Shown here piece after piece: positions 1 through 56,980 of a stretch of DNA of 64,000 nt (the stretch's first letter is position 1; the number at the start of each line of letters is the position of its first letter). A program made the translations under genes and the position numbers. Below the pieces are notes generated by a model. The model was not told where the DNA came from, ran no database searches, and was given only the letters and a program-made list of their open reading frames with translations. The stretch is from Octopus vulgaris (Eukaryota), in contig OX597819.1 in the NCBI GenBank assembly GCA_951406725.2, positions 89,652,001 to 89,716,000 on the forward strand, in the 5' to 3' direction.

Positions 1-166
1 TCCTAAGGCTAATTAGACGTTATTAATATTAAACGTTATTTAATTTAATCTTAAGGCTAATTAGAAGATAGAGTATCTGAAAAATTATTAACAATATTAA
101 AACAATATTAAACGTTATTTAATTTAATCTTAAGGCTAATTAACAATAATTATTAACAATATTAAA

Positions 167-1294
167 CTATATTAAACGTTATTTAATTTAATCCTAAGGC
201 TAATTTGACGGTATCAATATTAAACGTTATTTAATTTAATCTTAAGGCTAATTAGAAGATAGAGTATCTGGAAAATTATTATATCGAGAACAGTTATTGA
301 AAATGTAAACAAACCAAATGACGATCGCAACTTTAACTAAGATGTGGGCCTAAGTGAAAGATAAAATAGAATAATAAATAAAATATGAAATAGATGAAAT
401 TGATACTTAATCCAACAATGTGGTCTGGATAATTTTTTTGGTTTACGGGATTTTTTTTCGGGAGAGATGCTTCTTTTTCTTTCTTGCAGGAGATAACTTG
501 ATTCAGTTATTTTTGCACCATGTGCGTTTCGGCGAAAACTATATTAAACGTTATTTAATTTAATCCTAAGGCTAATTTGACGGTATCAATATTAAACGTT
601 ATTTAATTTAATCTTAAGGCTAATTAGAAGATAGGTATCTGGAAAATTATTATATCGAGAACAGTTATTGAAAATGTAAACAAACCAAATGACGATCGCA
701 ACTTTAACTAAGATGTGGGCCTAAGTGAAAGATAAAATAGAATAATAAATAAAATATGAAATAGATGAAATTGATACTTAATCCAACAATGTGGTCTGGA
801 TAATTTTTTGGTTTACGGGATTTTTTTTCGGGAGAGATGCTTCTTTTTTTCTTTCTTGCAGGAGATAACTTGATTCAGTTATTTTTGCACCATGTGCGTT
901 TCGGCGAAAACTATATTAAACGTTATTTAATTTAATCCTAAGGCTAATTTGACGGTATCAATATTAAACGTTATTTAATTTAATCTTAAGGCTAATTAGA
1001 AGATAGAGTATCTGGAAAATTATTATATCGAGAACAGTTATTGAAAATGTAAACAAACCAAATGACGATCGCAACTTTAACTAAAAGATGTGGGCCTAAG
1101 TGAAAGATAAAATAGAATAATAAATAAAATATGAAATAGATGAAATTGATACTTAATCCAACAATGTGGTCTGGATAATTTTTTTTTTTTTTTTTGGTTT
1201 ACGGGATTTTTTTCGGGAGAGATGCTTCTTTTTCTTTCTTGCAGGGAGATAACTTGATTCAGTTATTTTTGCACCATGTGCGTTTCGGCGAAAA
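167..1294. repeat. Tandem repeat, ~372-bp unit x3
   Basis: CTATATTAAACG...GTGCGTTTCGGCGAAAA starts at 167, 539 and 911. Copies are nearly identical apart from homopolymer lengths and small indels. Confidence 0.95.
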
Positions 1295-1456
1295 TGAAAA
1301 GTACTGTGTATATGTATATATTTATATATATATTTTTTTAAAAATATTTTTAACCAAAGTGTTGTAGTGATCTCTATGACTTAGAGTTTTACGTTTTACA
1401 ACTACAGTGGGTTATTTCGCCGTTCTATGCAGACTTTTTCACAGAGCAAAGGCAAT

Positions 1457-1463
1457 CACGTCT
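1457..1463 (-). promoter_or_regulatory. Candidate internal-promoter motif AGACGTG (DPE-like)
   Basis: AGACGTG on the minus strand at about +22 to +28 from the element/(TA)n boundary. It resembles the downstream promoter elements of non-LTR 5' ends. Confidence 0.3.
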
Positions 1464-1484
1464 TTCTCTGCTGAAAACGGAACC

Positions 1485-4560
<3,076 letters not shown>

Positions 4561-4562
<2 letters not shown>

Positions 4563-6503
4563 CTCTTGAGCTTTCTACAGGTATGCCAAAGAAACAGCTA
4601 CAGTGCACTGTAGAATAGGGCCACTCCTCGAAAAGGATGGCACACTTACAGGAAAACCAATGAGGGTAAGTGAAATACTGAATGAGCAATTCAAGAGTGT
4701 TTTCACTCCACCCCTTGGGCATCTCCAAATCACCAATCCAACTGACTTTTTTACCACTGCAGATATAAAATCAGAGGCGGCGACGATAGATTACATCGAT
4801 ATAAAGGAAGACGATGTAACCAAGGCTATAGATGAAATGAAAACAGACTCAGCTACTGGCCCCGATGGATTCCCGGCAATCCTCCTAAAAGCATGTAAGA
4901 GAGTCCTAGCAAGACCACTGCAGTTCCTCTTTCAGAGCTTCCTTGCAGCTGGCAAACTTCCAGGAAAACTGAAGGAAGGTAAAATATGCCCCATTCATAA
5001 AGGAGGTAGCAGAGCGGAAGCCAAGAACTATAGACCTATCTCTCTGACCTCACACATCAGCAAGGTCATGGAACGAATAGTCAGAAGGAAGCTGATCACC
5101 TTCCTTGAAGAGAATGACTTGCTGCCGACACCCAACATGGTTTCCGACCAGGGAGAAGCTGTTTAACTCAGCTCCTACAACACTATGACTGGGTGCTGAA
5201 ACGGCTGCTCAACCACTCAAATGTGGAAGTGATATATCTCGACTTTGCAAAGGCCTTTGATAAAGTCGATCATGGAATGATATGTCACAAACTGCGTGAT
5301 CTCAACATAGTTGGAAAACTGGGAGAATGGCTTCATGACTTTCTGAAGGATAGAAGTCAGGTGGTAGTAGCCAATGGGGCCACCTCCATTAACACACAAA
5401 TAGTGAGCGGTGTTCCGCAGGGCACTGTTCTGGGACCACTACTGTTCATAATGGCCCTCTCAGACATGCCCTCAGCCACGCAGAGAGCCACGATCACAAG
5501 TTATGCAGATGATACAAAAGTTTCACAGGCAATACAGAACCCTGAGGACACTAAACACCTGCAATGTGAGCTGGACGAAATATACAAGTGGGCTGAAAAG
5601 AATAGCATGCAGTTCAATGCTGGAAAGTTTCAAGCTTTATACTATCAGCATGCAAAACTGAATGCAATACCCAATGAATACACTGGACCCGGAGGGATTG
5701 CAATCCCAGAGGCACAATCAGTGCGTGACCTGGGTATTCACATGAGTGATGACGCGACCTTTCATGTACATGTTGCTAAACTGACAATGAAATGTAGACG
5801 GCTGGCTGGATGGATTCTTAGAACCTTTAGAACAAGAGAACAAGAAACCATGATGGTCCTCTGGAAGACACTTGTCCTAAGCCACTTTGACTATTGCTCT
5901 CAGCTATGGTCACCATCCAGTGTCAAGTTGATCACAGAACTTTGAGGCGATCCAACGAAGCTACACAAAGAAGATAGCCTCTATGCAGAATGTAAGCTAC
6001 TGGGAAAGACTCAAGAGATTAAAATTATATTCCCTGGAGCGTAGGCGGGAAAGATATGCCATAATATACATCTGGAAGATCCTGGAGGGAAGTGTCCTGA
6101 ACTTTGGCATCGAGAGTTACGCAAATGCCAGAACTGGGCGCCACTGCGTGGTGCCTAGGACTCCAAACCTGCCATCAAGATGTAGGACAAGATACTGTGA
6201 TAGCCTGGGCTTCCGAGGCCCACAGCTCTTCAATATCCTCCCGAAGAACCTGAGAGACCTGCATGGGGTGGATACAGATGTCTTTAAAATGAAGCTGGAT
6301 CTCTTCCTGTCAGGTGTCCCAGATGAACCAACTTCACGGCAGGAGGGGCAGATGAGGGCAGCTGCATCGAACTCTCTCATGCACCAAATAGCAGCTGCTA
6401 GAAAGCCTCCATGAAGTGGAAACCAAGTAGCAACACAAAATGGCAGTGCCCCAGCATGGCCACAGCTCATAAGCTGAAACTAGAATCAATCAATCAATCA
6501 ATC
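4561..6503 (+). mobile_element. CR1-like LINE family A, 5'-truncated copy: RT domain, C-terminus, 3' UTR and (AATC)n tail
   Basis: Motifs KNYRPISLTS, YLDFAKAFDKVDH, GVPQGTVLGPLLF, YADDT and LYSLERRRERY. The ORF is split by two 1-bp homopolymer indels (about 5125 and 5941). Both flanks are (TA)n. Confidence 0.93.
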
Positions 6504-8315
<1,812 letters not shown>

Positions 8316-9014: not shown

Positions 9015-13214
<4,200 letters not shown>

Positions 13215-13740
13215 AAGATGTCACACCCATAGTACTGTTGACACACTCAAACTCAGTCTGTGACACACTGATAGTACACATGAAACAACCGAAAATAGTA
13301 ATATGTGTCACATATCGGCCACCAGACACCCCTAGTCATGAAGGAGTGTTTGAAGATAGCCTCAGAAGAATAGAAGAAGTCCTGGACAAACTGGACCAGG
13401 GTAACACCATTCTACTGCTGGGAGATTTTAACCTTCCGAAAGTCAAATATGGCCATCTCCTATGAATGACATCACTTGAACAGAGACAGACAGAGTCCTT
13501 GTTGGCTCTCACACGCAAGTTTTTCATGGAACAAGCAGTGCTTCGGCCAACAAGAGGTGAGAATGTCTTGGACCTCTGTTTCACAAGCAACCCGATGCTC
13601 ATCCACAACATATATGGTAACACCTACAATTCTATCAGATATATACTTAGTAGAGGTAATGATATATGGTATGAGAGAGTTAGTTGAGACGCAGCCATTA
13701 GAAAATACCACAGGCCTATCCAGTCTAAACTTCCATAGAT
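13215..13740 (+). mobile_element. CR1-like LINE family A, apurinic endonuclease fragment
   Basis: Encodes [19 protein letters not shown] and RPTRGENVLDLCF, with frameshifts. Nearly identical to 19426-19881. Begins directly after (TA)n. Confidence 0.88.
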
Positions 13741-14058
13741 ATTTCCGGTTTTCTTGGGAAACGGCGGTGTTTTCCTTCTCTCTCTTCAAAGAATCCAAAA
13801 TCCAAACGAATCCTCTGCGTTCTGCTAGTGAAACTTTACGATAAGTATATTTTTATTAACGTAACATATTAAGACAACTTTTTTGATATATTTGACATCT
13901 TTTCATGAAAATTGATAACATTTTTCCTCGTTTGAAAACGCACGCGTGTTTATTTTCGNNNNNNNNNNNNNNNNNNNNNNNNNNNNNNNNNNNNNNNNNN
14001 NNNNNNNNNNNNNNNNNNNNNNNNNNNNNNNNNNNNNNNNNNNNNNNNNNNNNNNNNN

Positions 14059-14614
14059 TTCCGTGCCAACAGGAACCTCTCAGGTAGAACATACACACCC
14101 GTGTGCACTGTTTGGTTCCATCCTTTGCGGTTCCACTTCTACTCCTGGTTGTTTCACTCTTTGGTCCTGCTTGAGCTTTTTCTTTTCCTTTAGCTCTTCC
14201 AGTCCTTCTTTTAGTTCTTCTTCCTCCCTCTACCTCTTCACCGGGTTCTCCGTCTCCATGGCCCTTGCTGCCGGTTGGAGAACTTGCACCTGGGTTCACT
14301 TCCCGGGCAGGTTTCTCATTCAAAACCTCCTCCTGGGCGTCCACCAGGTGGGGGTGACTTCTTTCATCGTCTCCATTCTTGCCATCTTTGCCCCGCTCGT
14401 TCTCAAAGATGGCATCAAGTGCGCCAATGTGCGACCGTACAAGCGCATATGAGCGCACGAATTCCTGTCTCTTTCGCTCCATCTGAGCCGCTGTCCTCTT
14501 GTAGCCTCTGCTCTTCAGCGCAGCCGCAATCACCTCGCTAGGGCTATCTCCGCCGGCGCACTCCCATGCTCGTACGAATAAATCCAGCTCGTCACGTCTC
14601 CATGCTCTGGACAT
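14059..14614 (-). CDS. Putative LINE ORF1: N-terminal Myb/SANT-like (trihelix) domain, basic linker and start of a CCCH zinc finger; truncated by an N gap
   Basis: ATG at 14614. WRRDELDLFVRAW...IAAALKSRGYKRTAAQMERKRQEFVRSY fits the trihelix/Myb_DNA-bind_4 pattern, and VCMFYLRGSCWHG fits the start of a CCCH finger. The GC-rich frame stays open for about 185 codons up to the gap. Confidence 0.7.
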
Positions 14615-14675: not shown

Positions 14676-15519
14676 TTAAGGCTAATTAGAAGATAGAGTA
14701 CTTGAAAAAGAAATATTAACAATATTAAAGTTTGTGTAAAAACGTTATTTGGGTAAAAACGTTATTTAATCTTAAGGCTAATTAGGAGATAGAGTATCTG
14801 AAAATATATTAGCAATATTAATATTATATTAGAGTGTGGGTAAAAAAACGTTATTTAATCTTAAGGCTAATTTGGAGATAGAGTATCTGAAAATATATTA
14901 GCAATATTAATATTATATTAGAGTGTGGGTAATATTAAACGTTATTTAATTTAATCTTAAGGCTAATTAGAAGACAGAGTATCTGAAAAATTATATATAC
15001 AATATTAAGCAATATTAACCGTTATTTAATTTAATCTTAAGGCTAATTAGACGTTATTAATATTAAACGTTATTTAATTTAATCTTAAGGCTAATTAGAA
15101 GATAGAGTATCTGAAAATATATTAGCAATATTAATATTATATTAGAGTGTGGATAAAAACGTTATTTAATCTTAAGGCTAATCAGGAGATAGAGTATCTG
15201 AAAATATATTAGCAATGTTAATATTATATTAGAGTGTGGGTAATATTAAACGTTATTTAATTTAATCTTAAGGCTAATTAGAAGATAGAGTATCTGAAGA
15301 AGTATTAACAATATTAAAACAATATTAAACGTTATTTAATTTAATCTTAAGGCTAATTAACAATAATTATTAACAATATTAAACAATATTAAACGTTATT
15401 TAATTTAATCCTAAGGCTAATTAACAATAATTATTAACAATATTAAACAATATTAAACGTTATTTAATTTAATCCTAAGGCTAATTAACAATAATTATTA
15501 ACAATATTAAACGTTATTT
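14676..15519. repeat. AT-rich hierarchical minisatellite (~40-90-bp variants) upstream of ORF1
   Basis: About a dozen copies of AACGTTATTTAAT(TTAAT)C(T/C)TAAGGCTAAT with variable spacers (AGAAGATAGAGTATCTGAAAA, AACAATAATTATT). The same motif occurs at 1-300. Confidence 0.9.
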
Positions 15520-15619: not shown

Positions 15620-16827
15620 AACTGCGTGATCTCAACATAGTTGGAAAACTGGGAGAATGGCTTCATGACTTTCTGAAGGATAGAAGTCAGGTGGTAGTAG
15701 CCAATGGGGCCACCTCCATTAACACACAAATAGTGAGCGGTGTTCCGCAGGGCACTGTTCTGGGACCACTACTGTTCATAATGGCCCTCTCAGACATGCC
15801 CTCAGCCACGCAGAGAGCCACGATCACAAGTTATGCAGATGATACAAAAGTTTCACAGGCAATACAGAACCCTGAGGACACTAAACACCTGCAATGTGAG
15901 CTGGACGAAATATACAAGTGGGCTGAAAAGAATAGCATGCAGTTCAATGCTGGAAAGTTTCAAGCTTTATACTATCAGCATGCAAAACTGAATGCAATAC
16001 CCAATGAATACACTGGACCCGGAGGGATTGCAATCCCAGAGGCACAATCAGTGCGTGACCTGGGTATTCACATGAGTGATGACGCGACCTTTCATGTACA
16101 TGTTGCTAAACTGACAATGAAATGTAGACGGCTGGCTGGATGGATTCTTAGAACCTTTAGAACAAGAGAACAAGAAACCATGATGGTCCTCTGGAAGACA
16201 CTTGTCCTAAGCCACTTTGACTATTGCTCTCAGCTATGGTCACCATCCAGTGTCAAGTTGATCACAGAACTTGAGGCGATCCAACGAAGCTACACAAAGA
16301 AGATAGCCTCTATGCAGAATGTAAGCTACTGGGAAAGACTCAAGAGATTAAAATTATATTCCCTGGAGCGTAGGCGGGAAAGATATGCCATAATATACAT
16401 CTGGAAGATCCTGGAGGGAAGTGTCCTGAACTTTGGCATCGAGAGTTACGCAAATGCCAGAACTGGGCGCCACTGCGTGGTGCCTAGGACTCCAAACCTG
16501 CCATCAAGATGTAGGACAAGATTCTGTGATAGCCTGGGCTTCCGAGGCCCACAGCTCTTCAATATCCTCCCGAAGAACCTGAGAGACCTGCATGGGGTGG
16601 ATACAGATGTCTTTAAAATGAAGCTGGATCTCTTCCTGTCAGGTGTCCCAGATGAACCAACTTCACGGCAGGAGGGGCAGATGAGGGCAGCTGCATCGAA
16701 CTCTCTCATGCACCAAATAGCAGTTGCTAGAAAGCCTCCATGAAGTGAAACCAAGTAGCAACACCAAATGGCGGTGCCCCAGCATGGCCACAGCTCATAA
16801 GCTGAAACTAGAATCAATCAATCAATC
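15620..16827 (+). mobile_element. CR1-like LINE family A, 3' portion with intact RT/C-terminal frame and (AATC)n tail
   Basis: ORF 15691-16743 is nearly identical to the copy at 4561-6503. It starts at an N gap and is followed by (TA)n. Confidence 0.93.
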
Positions 16828-16830
16828 AAA

Positions 16831-18486
<1,656 letters not shown>

Positions 18487-18606
18487 GACGCTTTCTTTCT
18501 CTCTTCCTTCAGCTCTCATATCCCAAAAACACAACAACAAACAAACACACAAAAACCTTTCTATATATATATATATATATATAATATATATTATATTCAT
18601 ATATAC

Positions 18607-18638
<32 letters not shown>

Positions 18639-19048
18639 AAACATATATATATATCACACACACTCACACACACACACCACCAACAAACACAACACAACAC
18701 AAAACACAGAGAGAGAAACACAAACACCAACCACACACACAAACACACACACACACACCACACGAAAAACACACACACACTACAAAATATACTATACATA
18801 AATAAAACAAAAATATATAAGAAAAATAGTGGACAACCGTCCAAAGGAAGAAAAAAAGAGGAATGTCCAAAAACTCCAGATAACATAAATTAAAATATAT
18901 AAAGAAATATATATATATATATTCATATAAACATTATCAAACCACACACCAAAACACACACCACAAAACACAACACACAACACCACCCCCAGAACAAACA
19001 CAAATGCCCCAACAACGCACACACACACAACAAAACAGCAGAACAAAC

Positions 19049-19109
<61 letters not shown>

Positions 19110-19199
19110 ACTCACAACATATATATACACACAATATATACACACACACACCACCCCCCAAGGTGCACACACACGTCAGCACTTTATTGACACCCCGGT

Positions 19200-22632
<3,433 letters not shown>

Positions 22633-23071: not shown

Positions 23072-24426
23072 AGGACAGATCCCTGTGGTACACCCGATGA
23101 CATCTCATATGGTGTAGAGTGCTGTCCTAGAACTGTGACTACCTCCTTTCGGCTGAGGATGAAGGATTTCAACCAGTTAAAAAGGTCATCCCCCACACCC
23201 ATTGCAGAGAGTTTCACCATAAGCCTTTTGTGTGGCACAGAGTTGAAAGCCTTAGCAAAGTCAAGGTAGACAACATCCACCCATGAGCCACTGTCAGTAA
23301 TCTGAGTAATGTCCTCAAGGAACTCGACAAGCTGGTCACTGCAGCTGGAGTTAGGGACAAATCCATATTGTGAGGGTCGGATGAGACTGTGAGAGCTCCA
23401 GAAGTTCCAGAGTGTTTCTCTGACACACGATTCCATCAGTTTTGCAATACAGCTAGTGAGACTGACTGGGCGATAGTTGACAGGTGATGTGCGGTCGCCC
23501 TTTTTGAACAGAGGAATGACACTGGCAGTTTTCCACTGCTCCGGAGTAGCACCATTGTTGAGACAGTACTGGAAGAAAATAGAAAGCTGGTGTAAAAGGA
23601 AGTGCCTGCCACGTTTGAGAAGCAGGTATGTAACTCCATCGAGACCAGGGGAGGCATAGTTGTGCTTATTTTGAAGGTGACGTCGCAGCATTGCAGGTGT
23701 AAATTCCATAGTTGTTATGGAGTTTGCTGTTAGTGATGGTGAAGATGGTACATTTTGACTTTCAACAGTGAATATGTTTGCATAGCACTCGGCAATGAGT
23801 TCTGCGCATTCCTTGGGGTCGTCAGTGATCTGGTTTGTGTGAGGGTTGCGAAGAGGGCCCACTGGAGAGTGAGGTCTCTGCTTTGAGTGCACATATTTCC
23901 AGAAAACCTTGCTGTCAGGATTGGCTGCTATGCACTGTTCAAATTCAAGCACTGCTTTTTTTGTCACTTGCTTGAGATGGTTGGAGGATTTATTCCGCTT
24001 CTTCCTGTTGGTGTCTGATTTATGCAACCTGTATTCCCGTTCAGCAGTCCGACGTTCCCTCCTGGCAAGTCGGACCGCTGAAGTTTCCCAAATTGCCCTT
24101 TTGGGGCGGTTCTTCTTTTTTGTTTACGTGGCACTGATGCTGCACATGCTGCCCATATTGAGTCCAGGATACTCTGGAGTATAGTATTCACATCTCCAGA
24201 GTTGTAGAATTCACGCCAGTTTGGGTGCTGTAGTTCAGTGTGGTACAGGTTCCAATCTGCTCTCTTCCAATCGAAGGAAGCAGATTGGAGATGGTTCAGG
24301 TTTTTGTTGCCCGCAAGAGCCAGATTGGCGATGATCATAGCATGATCAGAGTCGCCTAGAGGTTCCTCCGTAGTACAATTGATAACCGCTTCAAGAGTTG
24401 TGGTGAAGAGAAGGTCCAAGGTGTTG
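23072..24426 (-). mobile_element. Distinct CR1-like LINE (family B), endonuclease end through RT; bounded by N gaps
   Basis: NTLDLLFT and LGDSDHAMI (endonuclease end), then VNYRPVSLTS, QYGF, VVYLDFAKAFNSVPH and SGVPQGSV. One frameshift near 24030. Confidence 0.9.
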
Positions 24427-24526: not shown

Positions 24527-25420
24527 GCAGATGACACAAAAGTCTCCCACACAATACAAAACCCTCAAAATATTGTACATCTGCAACGGGAGTTGTATAC
24601 AATATACAGGTGGGCCGAGGACAACAACATGCAGTTTAATGCAGGGAATTTCCAGGCCCTGCGCTACCGGCACACAAAGGTAAATGACATGCAGACCGGA
24701 TATTCAGGAATTGTAATTCCTGAGTCAAAATCAGTGCGTGACCTGGGCATTGACAAGTGCAATGATGCATCTTTCCAAGTGTATATTACTAATTTGGTAA
24801 TAAAATGCAGTCTGCTAGCTGGATGGATTCTCCAAACTTTCAGAACAAGAGAGAAGGAGACACTGATGGTCTTTTGGAAGACATTCGTCCACAGCTACTT
24901 GGACTACTGCTCCCATCTATGGTCACCACACAATATAAAGTTAACAGCAGAATTCGAAGCAATTCAACAAAGCTACACTAAAAAGATCATCTCAATGCAA
25001 CATATCAGCTACTTGGAAAGACTGAAAGTATTAAAACTCTTCTCCCTGGAGCGAAGGTGGGAGAGATATGCAGTGATATACATCTGGAAAATCCTGAAGG
25101 GTCTTGTCCCAAACTTTGACATTCAAAGTTACCCCAACAGCAGAACAGGGCGCCACTGCATGGTACCAAAGATTCCAACATCACCATCAAAATATAGGAC
25201 CAGATACTGCAACAGCTTGGGTTTCAGAGGACCACAGCTCTTCAACATTCTTCCTAAATGCCTAAGAGACCTGCATGGTGTGGATATGGATTTCTTTAAA
25301 ACTAAACTGGATCTCTTCTTGTCAGGGATCCCAGATGAACCTACCTCTTGGCAGGAAACACAGATGCGGGCAGCGGCATCGTACTCCCTTATTGATCAAG
25401 TGCCATGTCATGTATCATAG
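24527..25420 (+). mobile_element. Older diverged relative of family A, RT C-terminal part
   Basis: ADDTK...SVRDLGI...LFSLERRWERYAVIYIWKIL...RGPQLFNILP aligns to family A with many substitutions. Confidence 0.88.
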
Positions 25421-25947
25421 ATAGCTTCTATGCAGAATGTAAGCTACTGGGAAAGACTCAAGAGATTAAAATTATATTCCCTGGAGCGTAGGCGGGAAAG
25501 ATATGCCATAATATACATCTGGAAGATCCTGGAGAGAAGTGTCCTGAACTTTGGCATCGAGAGTTACGCAAATGCCAGAACTGGGCGCCACTGTGTGGTG
25601 CCTAGAACTCCAAACTTGCCATCAAGATGTAGGACAAGATTCTGTGATAGCCTGGGCTTCCGAGGCCCACAGCTCTTCAATATCCTCCCAAAGAACCTGA
25701 GAGACCTGCATGGGGTGGATACAGATGTCTTTAAAATGAAGCTGGATCTCTTCCTGTCAGGTGTCCCAGATGAACCAACTTCACGGCAGGAGGGGCAGAT
25801 GAGGGCAGCTGCATCGAACTCACTCATGCACCAAATAGCAGTTGCTAGAAAGCCTCCATGAAGTGAAACCAAGTAGCAACACCAAATGGCGGTACCCCAG
25901 CATGGCCACAGCTCATAAGCTGAAACTAGAATCAATCAATCAATCAA
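25421..25947 (+). mobile_element. CR1-like LINE family A, short 5'-truncated copy with (AATC)n tail
   Basis: Nearly identical to the 3' ends of the other family A copies. Followed by a TA tract. Confidence 0.93.
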
Positions 25948-25980
25948 TACAAATATATATATATATATATATATATACAT

Positions 25981-46133: not shown

Positions 46134-47025
46134 CGCCCGCCCTCCCACCCCCACCACCAATACCACCACCAATACCACCACCAATACCACCACCAATACC
46201 ACCACCACCACCAATACCACCCCCACCACCAATACCACCAATACCACCCCCACCACCAATACCACCCCCCCCACCGCCAATACCACCAATACCGGTGAAC
46301 ACTGTTCTCACCATCTACACCGGATACTCCCTCCTCCTCCCCCACCACCCCTTCCTACCCCTTCTCCTCATGCTTTCACTGAGAAAAGACAAGCTGCTAG
46401 CGTCTCAGCTCATCAACCGCCCTCTGATCTTACGCTTCCTCCTGTTTTGAATCTGACACTGCCTCAATCCTACTATCCCCTTCCAGTCCCCTCCATGCCT
46501 CGTAATATCCTACGTTTTTATTTCTTACGAACCTGCACCAACCCTTCCTGCCATCGTTCCTCCTTACCCACCCAACCTTCCCCACACCTACCCATATATA
46601 TACACATCCTACGTTTATATTTCTTACGAACCTTCACCAACCCTTCCTGCCATCGTTCCTCCTCCCCCAACCTTCCCCACTGGTGCTCCCCTATATTACC
46701 TGCACCCCTTTACTATCTCTCCCTCTCTTTTCACTGGTGAAACCTTTCTCAGCTGGACCCCCCCCAACTCAACTCTACCCCGCATCCCGTTGCCCGAACC
46801 GATCGTGACCGATGCCGGACCCCCGGCCCCTGTGCAGGTGGCACGTAAAAAGCACCCAATCCACTCACGGAGTGGTTGGCGTTAGGAAGGGCATCCAGCC
46901 GTAGAAACTCTGCCAGAATCAGACTGGAGCCTGGAGCGGCCCCTGGCTTCCCAGACCCCGGTCGAACCGTCCAACCCGTGCTAGCGCGGAAAACGGACGT
47001 TAAACGATGATGATGATGATGATGA

Positions 47026-50347: not shown

Positions 50348-51235
50348 CATCCAAGACATCCGCCTTGCCAATGACACACCGGTCTTATGCCATTTCCGCT
50401 CCACAGGTCACTCCTTGCAACACCTGCCTGTTTTCGGATTGTCCTTGCACAGAGGCCATCCGGATTCCTGCTTGCGCCGTGAACAGGGATTAATCTTCTT
50501 TCTTCGCTCTTTTACACCATTTGGTCTCAACTCTCCCCCGCTTTTCATCTAACCTCCCCCCCCCAACTCCTACTCCTCTTCAGTCCTTCATCTTTTCACC
50601 CCTACTCTTCCCTTCTTCTTTCTTCTTCCCTCTTCCCCTTCTCTCTTCCTCTCTGCTCCCTCACTCCCTTCCTCCCCCTTCCCTCCTTTTCCCCCTCATC
50701 TCCTCTCTCTTCCCTCCTCTCCCCTTCTCATTCTCCTCTCTCCCCTACCCTCTCTTCTCTCCCGCTCTCACTCTCCCCACAACCCACACGGGCTTTCCCC
50801 ACTCTATCCCCCCACCTCCCCACAACATCACACCACACTACACTACACCATACGACATTACACATCAAATCATACATACATACACACGTCCAGACCACCA
50901 GCCCTCTTTCACACGCACATACATACTCTCTTATACACACACGCACCTTCATGTTGGGGTGAGGTCACTTGACCCTGTTATCTTCCCTACTATCCCTCTA
51001 GCGTCTAACGTCTGACCTCCGATCTCTGACTTCTGCCTGAAATCAGAACGCCATGTTGGACCGTTAGCTCCGACACGCATTTTTTTCTCTCCTTGTTACT
51101 TTTCTGTGTATCTTATGTCGAAGAGCGTAGGCTCGAAACATATTGTTTTATTTCTATTCCTGAGCGCCATACTAATACAATTGTTTGTTTGTACTCCACC
51201 TGCCTGCGTCTTGTTTATTTTCGTAAACCTTCCCG

Positions 51236-51237
<2 letters not shown>
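50348..51237 (+). mobile_element. Penelope-like element 3' end: GIY-YIG endonuclease C-terminus and 3' UTR/pLTR
   Basis: DTPVLCHFRSTGHSLQHLPVFGL...RREQGLIFFLRSFTPFGLN* matches the Penelope endonuclease tail (HF..GHS..RE..I..L....P.GLN). A hammerhead-like remnant lies at 51111-51140. Both flanks are TA-rich. Confidence 0.8.
51111..51140 (+). ncRNA. Degenerate minimal hammerhead motif
   Basis: TCTT-ATGTCGA-A-GAGC GTAG GCTC-GAAAC. The stem II hairpin is intact but the core is altered. Confidence 0.45.
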
Positions 51238-54834: not shown

Positions 54835-56538
54835 CTCGCCTCGTTTTGCATATTCTGTATAATTCACTAGTTATCGTTATAGATATTTTAAGATCTATCT
54901 CCCTTATAGAAATTGGCTGCCGATTCTTCGCGGGGTTTTTCTTTTCTCTTCCCTTCTCTCCCCCTCTTGTTACATTGTCGTCTGTCTGGACTCCTCTCTT
55001 CCTACCACCCGCCATGGCTATGCATACTTAAGCTAGTAAACTGCCTCATTCTTGATTCCGAATTCCTTTTGCCAAGTCTGTCCGTAAACGAAGTGATCTC
55101 AAGATAAGAAATCTTTGAACTTTAATTCATCCGTATCTCTATTTATTATTATTATTTATTAATTATTATTATTCTGATCCCCCTAGTCGCCACTCTGTTT
55201 ACTATTTCAGCCTCGCCTCGCCTCGTTTTGCATATTCTGTATAATTCACTAGTTATCGTTATAGATATTTTAAGATCTATCTCCCTTATAGAAATTGGCT
55301 GCCGATTCTTCGCGGCGCGCCCGCCCTACCCACCCCCACCACCAATACCGGATATCTCTATTTTGCTCCAACTATACCGGATGTCGTTTTCTCCCACCAC
55401 CATTATAGGTGTCTACTCTTTGAACCCCCTCTTCAATACGCTATTTCACCATGCATTACCCCTCTCTCGATATCCTACGTTCTACTTGCCTAGAACCTGT
55501 CCTCTGGACCACCCCTCCCACTGGTGCTCACCCCTCCCACTGGTGCTCCCCTATATTTCTGCATCCCCCCACCACCATTATAGGTGTCTACTCTTTGAAC
55601 CCCCCTCTTCAATACGCTATTTCACCATGCATTACCCCTCTCTCGATATCCTACGTTCTACTTGCCTAGAACCTGTCCTCTGAACCACCCCTCCCACTGG
55701 TGCTCCCCTATATTTCTGCACCCCCCACCACCATTATAGGTGTCTACTCTTTGAACCCCCTCTTCAATACGCTATTCACCATGCATTACCCCTCTCTCAA
55801 TATCCTACGTTCTACTTGCCTAGAACCTGTCCTCTGAACCACCCCTCCCACTGGTGCCCACCCCTCCCACTGGTGCTCCCCTATATTTCTGCATCCCCCC
55901 CACCACCATAATAGGTGTCTACTCTTTGAACCCCCCTCTTCAATACGCTATTTCACCATGCATTACCCCTCTCTCGATATCCTACGTTCTACTTGCCTAG
56001 AACCTGTCCCCTGAACCACCCCTCCCACTGGTGCTCTCCTATATTTCTGCACCCCCACCACCATTATAGGTGTCTACTCTTTGAACCCCCTCTTCAATAC
56101 GCTGCTCCCCTATATTTCTGCACCCCCCACCACCATTATAGGTGTCTACTCTTTGAACCCCCTCTTCAATACGCTATTTCACCATGCATTACCCTCTCTC
56201 TCGATATCCTACGTTCTACTTGACTAGTACCTGTCCTCTGAACCACCCCTCCCACTGGTGCTCCCCTATATTTCTGCACCCCCCCCATAAAAAGCACCAT
56301 CCGAACGTGGCCGATGCCAGACCCCTCTGGCACCTGTGCAGGTGGCACGTAAAAAACACCCACTACACTCGCGGAGTGGTTGGCGTTAGGAAGGGCATCC
56401 AGCTGTAGAAACACTGCCAGACTAGACTGGAGCCTGGGGCAGTCCCGAGCTCCCCAGACCCCGGTCGAAACCGTCCAACCCGTGCTAGCGCGGAAAACGG
56501 ACGTTAAACGATGATGATGATGATGATGATGATGATGA
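54835..56538 (+). mobile_element. Composite non-autonomous element 2: 99-bp partial plus one full 382-bp monomer, C-rich junction, VNTR body and RTE tail
   Basis: 54835-54933 repeats at 55217-55315. The junction reads CGCGG|CGCGCCCGCCCTACCCACCCCCACCACCAATACCGG. It is followed by ~160-180-bp tandem units (55390-56285) and an RTE 3' tail with (GAT)n. Flanks are TA-rich. Confidence 0.85.
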
Positions 56539-56797: not shown

Positions 56798-56922
56798 AGA
56801 GCGTAGGCTCGAAACGTTAAAGACTTGTTTTATTTATATTTCCTGAGCGCCATACTAATACAATTGTTCATTTGTTTTCCACCTGCCTTCGTCTTTTGTC
56901 TATTTTCATAAAGCTTCCCGTT
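56798..56922 (+). mobile_element. Penelope-like 3' end fragment truncated within the hammerhead
   Basis: AGAGCGTAGGCTCGAAACGTTAAAGAC...CTTCCCGTT is homologous to 51122-51237. Flanks are TA-rich. Confidence 0.75.
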
Positions 56923-56980
56923 ATATATATACATATATATATACACTAACATATATATATATACATATATATACATACAT

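What the first reader, a model, noticed from the sequence alone, without database searches (positions are those of the whole stretch)
14059..14614. LINE-type ORF1 with a trihelix/Myb DNA-binding domain fused to a CCCH zinc finger
Seen in sequence: a W-x3-E…W…IAAAL.SRGY.RT..Q…K…Y pattern at the N-terminus, a basic linker, and then C-x7-C-xHG. Established: this Myb/SANT-like family occurs in Harbinger accessory proteins and GT trihelix factors, whereas LINE ORF1s usually carry RRM, CCHC, PHD or esterase modules. Inference: an ORF1 with a sequence-specific DNA-binding domain could autoregulate through its AT-rich repeated 5' UTR or help tether insertion to (TA)n. Linkage to an ORF2 is not shown because N gaps flank the contig.
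Basis: partly seen in the sequence, partly recalled or inferred. Interest (0 to 1): 0.7.

Follow-up and report, generated by a model that had tools for sequence, protein, structure and literature searches.

The report
Octopus LINE ORF1 with Myb-like head
This is the front half of a gene that is likely the RNA-packaging protein (ORF1) of an octopus LINE retrotransposon; it joins a predicted Myb-like DNA-binding fold to a CCCH zinc finger, a pairing absent from the ORF1 surveys read here, which would give the element a second way to grip DNA.

Summary
A 185-codon ORF (14614→14060, minus strand) runs into an N gap. It has a predicted three-helix Myb/SANT-like domain, a charged linker and half of a CCCH finger. 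Pfam scores are below cut-off, but two predicted models rank Myb, GARP and GT-1 folds first. It has 23 relatives; all 8 named ones are Octopus, on several chromosomes, and 3 hold the whole finger.

The LINE link is new evidence. Two relatives match, in order and on one strand, the degraded stretch just upstream of the window's family-A endonuclease–reverse transcriptase gene: a pre-finger motif at 18830 (2 of 500 shuffles) and the C-terminus at 19184-19222 (31 of 5000), which overlaps the ORF2 start. So the protein family is very likely ORF1 of CR1-like LINEs. This copy's own ORF2 is unresolved; a sister family is likelier than family A. No Harbinger transposase was found.

DNA binding, autoregulation and (TA)n tethering are untested. 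Verdict: new variant of a known kind; interest 0.5.

The parts
14060..14614 (-). 5' half of the ORF (185 codons), cut by the N gap; likely LINE ORF1
   Evidence: the start Met lines up with the first Met of several relatives
14378..14605 (-). Predicted Myb/SANT-like three-helix domain with a long third helix (residues about 4-79; helices 7-19, 26-35, 42-79)
   Evidence: PF13837 E 0.0044, sub-threshold; model pLDDT 76.8; VIA top Z 8.1, rmsd 1.6, 57 aligned, to ARR1; conserved columns
14105..14401 (-). Variable linker, acidic (residues 72-130) then basic (131-170, with RRTKRR); predicted disordered
   Evidence: charges and 21-33% identity to four relatives; pLDDT < 50 over the matching stretch of P0020
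14060..14095 (-). First half of a CCCH zinc finger (C174-x7-C182-WHG); the rest lies in the gap
   Evidence: PF00642 E 0.044; complete C-x7-C-x8-C-x3-H in P0004, P0017, P0020
14615..15519 (-). Putative 5' leader: 58 unique bases, then an AT-rich array of 64-89-bp units; 11 copies of the core TAATTAGCCTTAAG (up to 1 mismatch)
   Evidence: being a UTR is inferred from position only
1..1485 (-). Second copy of the same leader: AT-rich array (1-290, 91% identical to 15241-15487), three 372-bp units (164-1294) and a sharp end at about 1485 against (TA)n; likely the element's 5' end, with its ORF beyond the window edge
18830..18859 (+). Pre-finger motif WTTVQRKKKR of a family-A ORF1, inside a G-depleted, degraded stretch (18486-19170)
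   Evidence: best 12-mer of P0017 in the whole window outside the ORF; 2 of 500 shuffles
19184..19222 (+). C-terminus and stop of the family-A ORF1 (LLTPRYPTQCCC-stop), overlapping the ORF2 start in another frame
   Evidence: best of 4701 stop-ending windows for the P0004 C-terminus; 31 of 5000 shuffles
19171..21593 (+). Family-A ORF2: AP endonuclease (frameshifted near its start), gap, reverse transcriptase, short 3' UTR, AATC-type tail, then (TA)n
   Evidence: Exo_endo_phos_2 E 4e-13, RVT_1 E 2e-31
13216..13740 (+). Family-A endonuclease fragment to the left of the ORF contig, opposite strand to the ORF
   Evidence: 93.8% identical to 19426-19881
15620..16830 (+). Family-A reverse-transcriptase 3' half and tail to the right of the ORF contig, opposite strand to the ORF

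Best explanation
This is the front half of a protein with a predicted Myb-like helix-turn-helix domain and a CCCH zinc finger, likely the ORF1 protein of an octopus LINE retrotransposon, which likely packages the element's own RNA through the finger and would dock that particle on DNA through the Myb-like domain. Shown: the ORF, the multi-copy Octopus family, and the family layout (Myb-like head, variable linker, one C-x7-C-x8-C-x3-H finger; in P0004 and P0020 also a Y[AS]DAV motif, a shared helix and a Q/H/P-rich tail). Also shown: two motifs of relatives recur, in order, just upstream of a family-A endonuclease-RT ORF2. Inferred, about 0.88: the family is ORF1 of CR1-like APE-type LINEs. This copy is more likely a sister family than family A itself. 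Inferred from established knowledge: ORF1p is translated first, binds its mRNA in cis through the finger and the basic linker, multimerises through the C-terminal helix, and ORF2 is made from the overlapping frame. Inferred, about 0.65: the head binds double-stranded DNA, because its third helix keeps conserved basic and polar residues. Speculative, about 0.3, but the role I rank first: it holds the particle on chromatin or AT-rich DNA so that the endonuclease can nick, adding to the (TA)n bias.
For: Relatives: 23 at E<=0.001. All 8 named ones are Octopus; the 6 from O. vulgaris sit on 6 sequences of different length, 84-226 Mb. 20 of 23 lack a complete finger, and one is only a linker piece ending an O. 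sinensis lipin gene model (P0007): the pattern of dispersed, decayed copies. Head domain 32-47% and finger 27-60% identical to the four longest relatives, against 21-33% for the linker. Link to ORF2: the P0004 C-terminus scores best at the stop at 19220 among 4701 stop-ending windows (33, next 15; 31 of 5000 shuffles), and only 2 plus-strand stops lie in the 60 bases before the endonuclease start. The genetic code forces P0004's last residues to read [PS][MV]L[FLQ*][ILMV] in the overlapping frame, the register in which the window reads VLLL. P0017's WTTVQRRKKKQR has its best window hit at 18830, 130 codons before that stop (2 of 500 shuffles). Family A has APE and RT, and AATC-type tails against AT runs in 4 of 4 3' ends. 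Fold: Myb, GARP and GT-1 domains head both VIA lists. Helix 3 keeps R40 18/20, Q44 18/20, K48 19/20, K/R49 20/20 and Y56 19/20. Prior: O. vulgaris has 62 Mb of CR1 against 0.94 Mb of PIF/Harbinger (PMC13282606 supplement). Precedents: Myb domains bind target DNA in R2 (PMC12503042); HeT-A ORF1/Gag targets telomeres, and TRAS Pol has a Myb domain (PMC5537684).
Against: No contiguous ORF1-ORF2 was seen for this copy, and the ORF is antisense to the flanking family-A pieces. Both linking matches are short (10-13 residues) and post hoc: the first was seen by eye before testing, the second came from a scan of four proteins. Without stop anchoring, the P0004 C-terminal match ranks only 6th, behind low-complexity hits. 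Frameshift-tolerant alignments of P0017, P0004, P0020, P0005 and the query to 18486-19225 do not beat their shuffles. The C-termini of P0020, P0017 and P0005 do not match the 19220 stop. The head domain is not recognisable in the degraded family-A ORF1. Pfam scores are sub-threshold, Foldseek E-values are >=0.2, and Z 7-8 is within what common helical arrangements give. (TA)n already covers 34% of positions 1-26013, so adjacency to it is weak evidence of targeting. In several site-specific APE elements the endonuclease itself sets the target (recalled). No binding was tested.
Confidence: 0.6

Rival explanations
1. It is a LINE ORF1, but the Myb-like head mainly regulates the element's own promoter by binding the repeated units of the 5' leader.
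For: The leader holds 11 copies of a conserved core with two 6-bp palindromes (TAATTA, CTTAAG), and 6 more lie in the second leader copy. Four copies of GTGTGGRTAA contain the GT-factor core G-Pu-(T/A)-A-A-(T/A) given in PMC6358761.
Against: The motif copies are products of tandem duplication, so they are not independent. The core is 6 bp in AT-rich DNA. The domain lacks GT-1's tryptophan pattern, so a plant factor's site says little. 5' subunit arrays also occur in CR1-group elements without ORF1 (PMC13343379).
Confidence: 0.2
2. It is a LINE ORF1, but the head works as a protein-contact or RNA-binding module (binding ORF2p, import factors or chromatin proteins) rather than as a DNA reader.
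For: Harbinger Myb-like proteins bind their transposase and import it into the nucleus, and SANT/Myb/trihelix motifs bind proteins as well as DNA (PMC9392472). SANT domains and the spliceosomal Cdc5 Myb appear among the fold matches.
Against: The third helix keeps basic residues across relatives of median 38% identity, as expected of a recognition helix. The top fold matches are DNA-bound Myb, GARP and homeodomains.
Confidence: 0.25
3. This copy is family A's own ORF1, and the scaffolder inverted the small contig between two family-A pieces.
For: The contig lies between a family-A endonuclease piece (13216-13740) and a family-A RT piece (15620-16830), with 100-N gaps on both sides. Family A is young (RT copies 96.5-99.5% identical) and the ORF is intact.
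Against: The family-A ORF1 remnant has WTTVQRKKKR before the finger, like P0017, and this ORF lacks it. The query does not align to the remnant above chance. In the tree the query is not in the loosely supported group (87/83) holding P0004, P0017 and P0020.
Confidence: 0.25
4. It is the accessory Myb/SANT protein of a PIF/Harbinger DNA transposon.
For: PF13837 is the best Pfam hit. Harbingers encode such a protein (PMC9392472). O. vulgaris has 46 PIF/Harbinger families.
Against: No DDE transposase among the ORFs scanned, and no inverted partner for the end at 1485. Relatives lead into a LINE ORF2. PIF/Harbinger covers under 1 Mb of the O. vulgaris genome. The gaps could hide a transposase.
Confidence: 0.05
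5. It is a host transcription-factor gene or a domesticated copy.
For: Intact frame and domain-focused conservation; some relatives are annotated gene models.
Against: Many truncated, divergent copies on several chromosomes; one piece is captured at the end of a lipin model. The leader recurs within the window. No named relative outside Octopus, and the exact protein is in no database.
Confidence: 0.04

Closest known systems
ORF1 proteins of CR1/L2/Jockey LINEs (types I-V; PMC4120745)
   Same: Upstream ORF of an APE-RT element; modular layout with a zinc finger and a predicted helical multimerising segment; domains exchanged between lineages.
   Different: Table 1 of that survey lists PHD, RRM, CCHC, Transposase_22, esterase and zf/lz, with no Myb or CCCH. 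Here none of those domains was detected; a Myb-like head and one CCCH finger stand in their place. Formally type V (unclassified).
Harbinger Myb-like proteins, NAIF1/MSANTD (PF13837)
   Same: N-terminal trihelix-like domain with bulky aromatic residues.
   Different: Score is below the Pfam cut-off; fused to a CCCH finger; partner is a LINE ORF2, not a DDE transposase; no terminal inverted repeats found.
Plant GT-1 trihelix factors (PDB 2jmw)
   Same: Three helices with a long third helix; Z 6.7 and 7.3 (rmsd 8.3 and 9.3 over 75 and 78 residues).
   Different: GT-1 has three conserved tryptophans (PMC6358761); this family has two, flanking helix 1. Identity is 13-22%.
Myb domains of R2 and of TRAS Pol; HTH_1-type ORF1 of Coccomyxa L1
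   Same: Non-LTR elements that carry a helix-turn-helix DNA-binding module (PMC12503042, PMC5537684, PMC5203782).
   Different: In R2 and TRAS the Myb sits in the RT polyprotein, not in a separate ORF1. The algal ORF1 matches a LysR-type HTH and has no CCCH finger reported.

Membership tests
ORF1 of APE-type LINE (CR1 group) | Lies upstream of, or overlaps, an APE-RT ORF2 on the same strand (protein family level) | tested here: met
   Motifs of relatives P0017 (18830) and P0004 (19184-19222) precede the family-A ORF2 in order; short matches, see caveats
ORF1 of APE-type LINE (CR1 group) | The same linkage for this very copy | tested here: inconclusive
   N gaps on both sides; flanking family-A pieces are on the other strand
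ORF1 of APE-type LINE (CR1 group) | Partner ORF2 has AP endonuclease and reverse transcriptase | tested here: met
   PF14529 E 4.3e-13; PF00078 E 1.6e-31; nearest solved RTs are R2 and L1
ORF1 of APE-type LINE (CR1 group) | 3' tail of short tandem repeats; no C-terminal CCHC knuckle in ORF2 (CR1-group traits, recalled) | tested here: met
   AATC/AAAATC tails in 4 of 4 family-A ends; no CCHC pattern in 19982-21496
ORF1 of APE-type LINE (CR1 group) | Dispersed, mostly truncated copies | tested here: met
   23 relatives, 3 with a whole finger; 6 different O. vulgaris sequences
ORF1 of APE-type LINE (CR1 group) | RT phylogeny places ORF2 in the CR1 clade | not testable with these tools
   No Repbase, Dfam or RTclass reference set was available
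ORF1 of APE-type LINE (CR1 group) | RNA binding / nucleic-acid chaperone activity | not testable with these tools
   Needs biochemistry
ORF1 types I-IV (Khazina-Weichenrieder, as used in PMC4120745) | RRM, CCHC, PHD, Transposase_22 or esterase domain | tested here: inconclusive
   None found by hmmscan in P0004, P0017, P0020 and no sheet-containing domain in the P0020 model; the survey used more sensitive HMM-HMM searches
Myb/SANT-like DNA-binding domain (PF13837) / GT trihelix | Pfam gathering score of 27 bits | tested here: not met
   17.8 bits; best E 0.0041 among 20 members
Myb/SANT-like DNA-binding domain (PF13837) / GT trihelix | Three-helix HTH fold with a long third helix | tested here: met
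   Predicted only: H7-19, H26-35, H42-79; same pattern in P0020; Myb, GARP and GT-1 top in VIA
Myb/SANT-like DNA-binding domain (PF13837) / GT trihelix | Three regularly spaced tryptophans (PMC6358761) | tested here: not met
   W5 12/15 and W17 14/17 only; no conserved Trp in helix 2 or 3, with F/Y38, F52 and Y56 instead
Myb/SANT-like DNA-binding domain (PF13837) / GT trihelix | Sequence-specific DNA binding | not testable with these tools
   Needs SELEX or EMSA
CCCH zinc finger | Three Cys and one His with CCCH-like spacing | tested here: met
   C-x7-C-x8-C-x3-H in 3 of 23 relatives; the window copy shows only the first two Cys; Pfam scores below cut-off
PIF/Harbinger accessory Myb-like protein | Neighbouring DDE transposase | tested here: inconclusive
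   None among the ORFs scanned, but 7 gaps remain
PIF/Harbinger accessory Myb-like protein | Terminal inverted repeats | tested here: inconclusive
   No inverted partner for the end at 1485 beyond chance-level matches; the other end may lie outside the window

The most novel reading that the evidence does not exclude
A young octopus LINE lineage has replaced the usual ORF1 toolkit with a captured Myb/trihelix DNA reader plus a CCCH RNA reader. Its ORF1p bridges the element's RNA to (TA)n microsatellite chromatin, so target choice would be set by ORF1 and not only by the endonuclease, while the same head reads the repeated 5' leader.
Probability: 0.2. Interest if true: 0.8.

Novelty: new variant of a known kind. 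Interest (0 to 1): 0.5.

Why it matters
What ORF1p does beyond coating RNA is still open (PMC12503042), and known ORF1 modules bind RNA, chromatin marks or lipids. A separate ORF1 with a predicted double-stranded-DNA reader makes a direct test possible: does ORF1 choose or hold the insertion site, or control its own promoter? It would add a domain type to the catalogue of modular ORF1s and suggests gene capture from a DNA transposon or a host factor. CR1 elements are large and recently active in octopus (62 Mb; 787 recent insertions in 13 families; PMC13282606), so a microsatellite-seeking family could help shape these repeat-rich genomes. The element is otherwise an ordinary LINE, and the architecture may already sit unremarked in Repbase or Dfam, which I could not search.

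Tried and rejected
Word-based homologue search with the ORF: none of 148 candidates. With the alignment: only 2 already known hits at 37-650 aa and none at 651-2000 aa, so no ORF1-RT fused gene model was found; this is weak evidence. ESM Atlas gave no usable hit for the ORF or P0020. PDB sequence searches gave nothing credible. Foldseek gave no match at E<=0.001. Bacterial and archaeal genomes held no relative of the ORF or of family-A ORF2. Metagenome and viral contigs stayed unchecked, and no eukaryotic genome collection was available, so no gap-free copy could be fetched. tblastn of the relatives against the window found only the ORF itself. Frameshift-tolerant alignment to 18486-19225 was not above shuffles for any protein. 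No Rfam hit in the window. No second inverted end. A resemblance between the end at 1485 and the junction at 13741 was rejected: no blastn match at word size 7. Whether the C-terminal helix multimerises was not tested. Paper searches listed no paper that, by title or abstract opening, describes a Myb-like or CCCH domain in a LINE ORF1; the terms Myb and CCCH were absent from the main texts of PMC4120745, PMC11203168, PMC13343379 and PMC5203782. Subscription journals, Repbase Reports, bioRxiv supplements and 21 of 33 supplements of PMC10294476 were not seen and may bear on novelty.

Full report
Setting. The window is repeat-rich animal DNA with seven 100-N gaps. It is most likely octopus, an inference from the named relatives of the ORF. 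The first 26 kb hold fragments of three LINE ORF2 families among (TA)n and (TG)n runs. Family A is on the plus strand (4562-6505, 13216-13740, 15620-16830, about 19171-21593, 25419-25948; RT copies 96.5-99.5% identical). Family B is on the plus strand (24527-25392; 74% identical to A). Family C is on the minus strand (23072-24426; 38% amino-acid identity).

Observation. The ORF starts at ATG 14614 on the minus strand and stays open for 185 codons to the gap. Pfam gives Myb_DNA-bind_4 at E 0.0044 and zf-CCCH at E 0.044, both below cut-off. A single-sequence model of residues 1-91 has helices 7-19, 26-35 and 42-79 (pLDDT 76.8). Its best structural matches are Myb and GARP domains (ARR1: Z 8.1, rmsd 1.6, 57 aligned), though Foldseek E-values stay at 0.2 or above. 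A model of relative P0020 repeats the pattern, with LUX, GT-1 and ARR1 tied on top (Z 7.3-7.8). Such Z values are modest for small helical domains; the case rests on Pfam, two models and the conserved columns agreeing. The linker is acidic and then basic. The ORF is antisense to the family-A pieces on either side.

Family. An exhaustive phmmer search found 23 relatives. Eight are named, all from Octopus: six O. vulgaris models on six different chromosome-scale sequences and two from O. sinensis; 15 are unnamed. Three hold a complete C-x7-C-x8-C-x3-H finger (P0004, P0017, P0020). P0004 and P0020 continue into a Y[AS]DAV motif, a shared FL[ED]MAQRIV helix and a Q/H/P-rich tail. Most others stop in the linker, and one is a linker fragment ending a lipin gene model (P0007). 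Head and finger are conserved more than the linker. Head domains are a median 38% identical across 190 pairs, so this is an old, diverse, dispersed family, as expected of a transposon.

Link to ORF2. The most complete family-A copy has a G-depleted, degraded stretch upstream of its endonuclease (18486-19170; 4% G), probably poor read quality (inference). Two things survive in or next to it. First, an open frame ends LLTPRYPTQCCC-stop at 19222, overlapping the frame that reads VLLL into the endonuclease start; P0004 ends LLTPQGSHQCCS. Among 4701 stop-ending windows in six frames this is P0004's best match (33, next 15), and 31 of 5000 shuffled peptides do as well anywhere. The code forces P0004's tail to read a similar hydrophobic run in the same overlapping register. 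Second, P0017's pre-finger motif WTTVQRRKKKQR finds its best match in the window, outside the ORF itself, at 18830 on the same strand, 130 codons before that stop; the matching distances are 147 residues in P0017 and 169 in P0004 (2 of 500 shuffles). Against this: both matches are short and post hoc, the unanchored rank of the first is 6th, three other C-termini do not match, and full frameshift-tolerant alignments do not beat shuffles. Two colinear matches from two different relatives, at the expected place, still make it very likely (about 0.88) that this protein family is the ORF1 of family-A-type LINEs. The copy in question lacks the WTTVQR motif and does not group with P0004, P0017 and P0020 (weak support), so a sister family such as B is likelier than A. 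I recall CCCH-bearing ORF1s ahead of similar ORF2s in crustaceans; this is from memory and untested.

Leader and target. Upstream of the ATG lie 58 unique bases and an AT-rich array. The same array opens the window, continues into three 372-bp units and ends sharply at about 1485 against (TA)n. This suggests a second copy and a 5' leader of over 2 kb (inference). Family A's 3' ends meet AT runs in 4 of 4 cases and two 5' truncations also meet (TA)n, but (TA)n covers 34% of that region, so a preference is plausible but not shown, and nothing here ties it to ORF1.

Mechanism. By established LINE biology, ORF1p binds its own mRNA and ORF2p nicks and reverse-transcribes. Here the CCCH finger and the basic linker are the likely RNA-binding parts, and the C-terminal helix is a likely multimerising part (untested). 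The head's third helix keeps R40, Q44, R47, K48, K/R49, E51 and Y56, which favours DNA binding (about 0.65). I rank docking of the particle on DNA or chromatin first (about 0.3), then protein contact or RNA binding (0.25), then autoregulation through the leader (0.2). Harbinger (0.05) and host-gene (0.04) readings fare poorly: no transposase among the ORFs scanned, no inverted end, and little Harbinger DNA in O. vulgaris.

Comparison with what is known. It works like a LINE ORF1 and meets the testable membership features at family level, but CR1-clade placement needs a reference tree. The head resembles Myb/trihelix domains but fails the Pfam cut-off and the three-tryptophan pattern, so it is not filed as PF13837 or as a GT factor. 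What I saw of each paper: PMC4120745, passages, part 2 of 6 with Table 1, and a term search of 3 supplements; PMC13282606, part 1 of 3 and three supplement rows; PMC10294476, passages and a term search of 12 of 33 supplements; passages only for PMC9115989, PMC11203168, PMC13343379, PMC9392472, PMC5203782, PMC6358761, PMC12503042, PMC5537684, PMC3520747 and PMC8967140. None of these passages describes a Myb-like or CCCH ORF1. Precedents exist for Myb domains in R2 and TRAS polyproteins, for an HTH-type ORF1 in an alga, and for ORF1-led targeting in HeT-A. Ten searches listed no direct description; Repbase and Dfam were out of reach.

Verdict. A real feature: a new ORF1 architecture in an otherwise ordinary LINE, with an untested but testable DNA-binding role. 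Novelty: new variant of a known kind. Interest 0.5; 0.8 if ORF1-guided targeting proved true (probability about 0.2).

Noticed in passing
window 9269-9618: An 89-codon open frame with no Pfam hit ends in a 110-bp imperfect palindrome (9508-9618) next to (TA)n; possibly the end of another mobile element.
   Followed up: partly
window 26016-46133: Satellite of 39 copies of a 513-bp unit, 98% matched.
   Followed up: no
window 13741-13958: Unique 218-bp segment joined directly to a family-A endonuclease fragment; no other match in the window. Could be the end of another inserted element.
   Followed up: partly
window 18486-19170: Stretch with only 4% G after a long (TA)n run; it keeps traces of a family-A ORF1 and looks like read-quality damage in the assembly.
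   Followed up: yes
window 25419: A 5'-truncated family-A copy starts just after the end of a family-B ORF2, not inside a (TA)n run.
   Followed up: partly
window 23072-24426: A third, more distant LINE family (C) on the minus strand, 38% identical to A in ORF2; its ORF1 is not in view.
   Followed up: partly
P0007 (XP_036355764.1) residues 381-446: The O. sinensis LPIN3 gene model ends in a piece of this ORF's linker (79% identical over 33 residues): a mis-annotation or exonisation of a copy.
   Followed up: partly
window 51060-51236 and 56800-56925: Two related short repeats, one ending against (TA)n; they recall Penelope-type ends (recalled, not tested).
   Followed up: no
window 55393-56103: Tandem array with 154-177-bp and 331-bp periods, related by eye to 46480-46700.
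   Followed up: no
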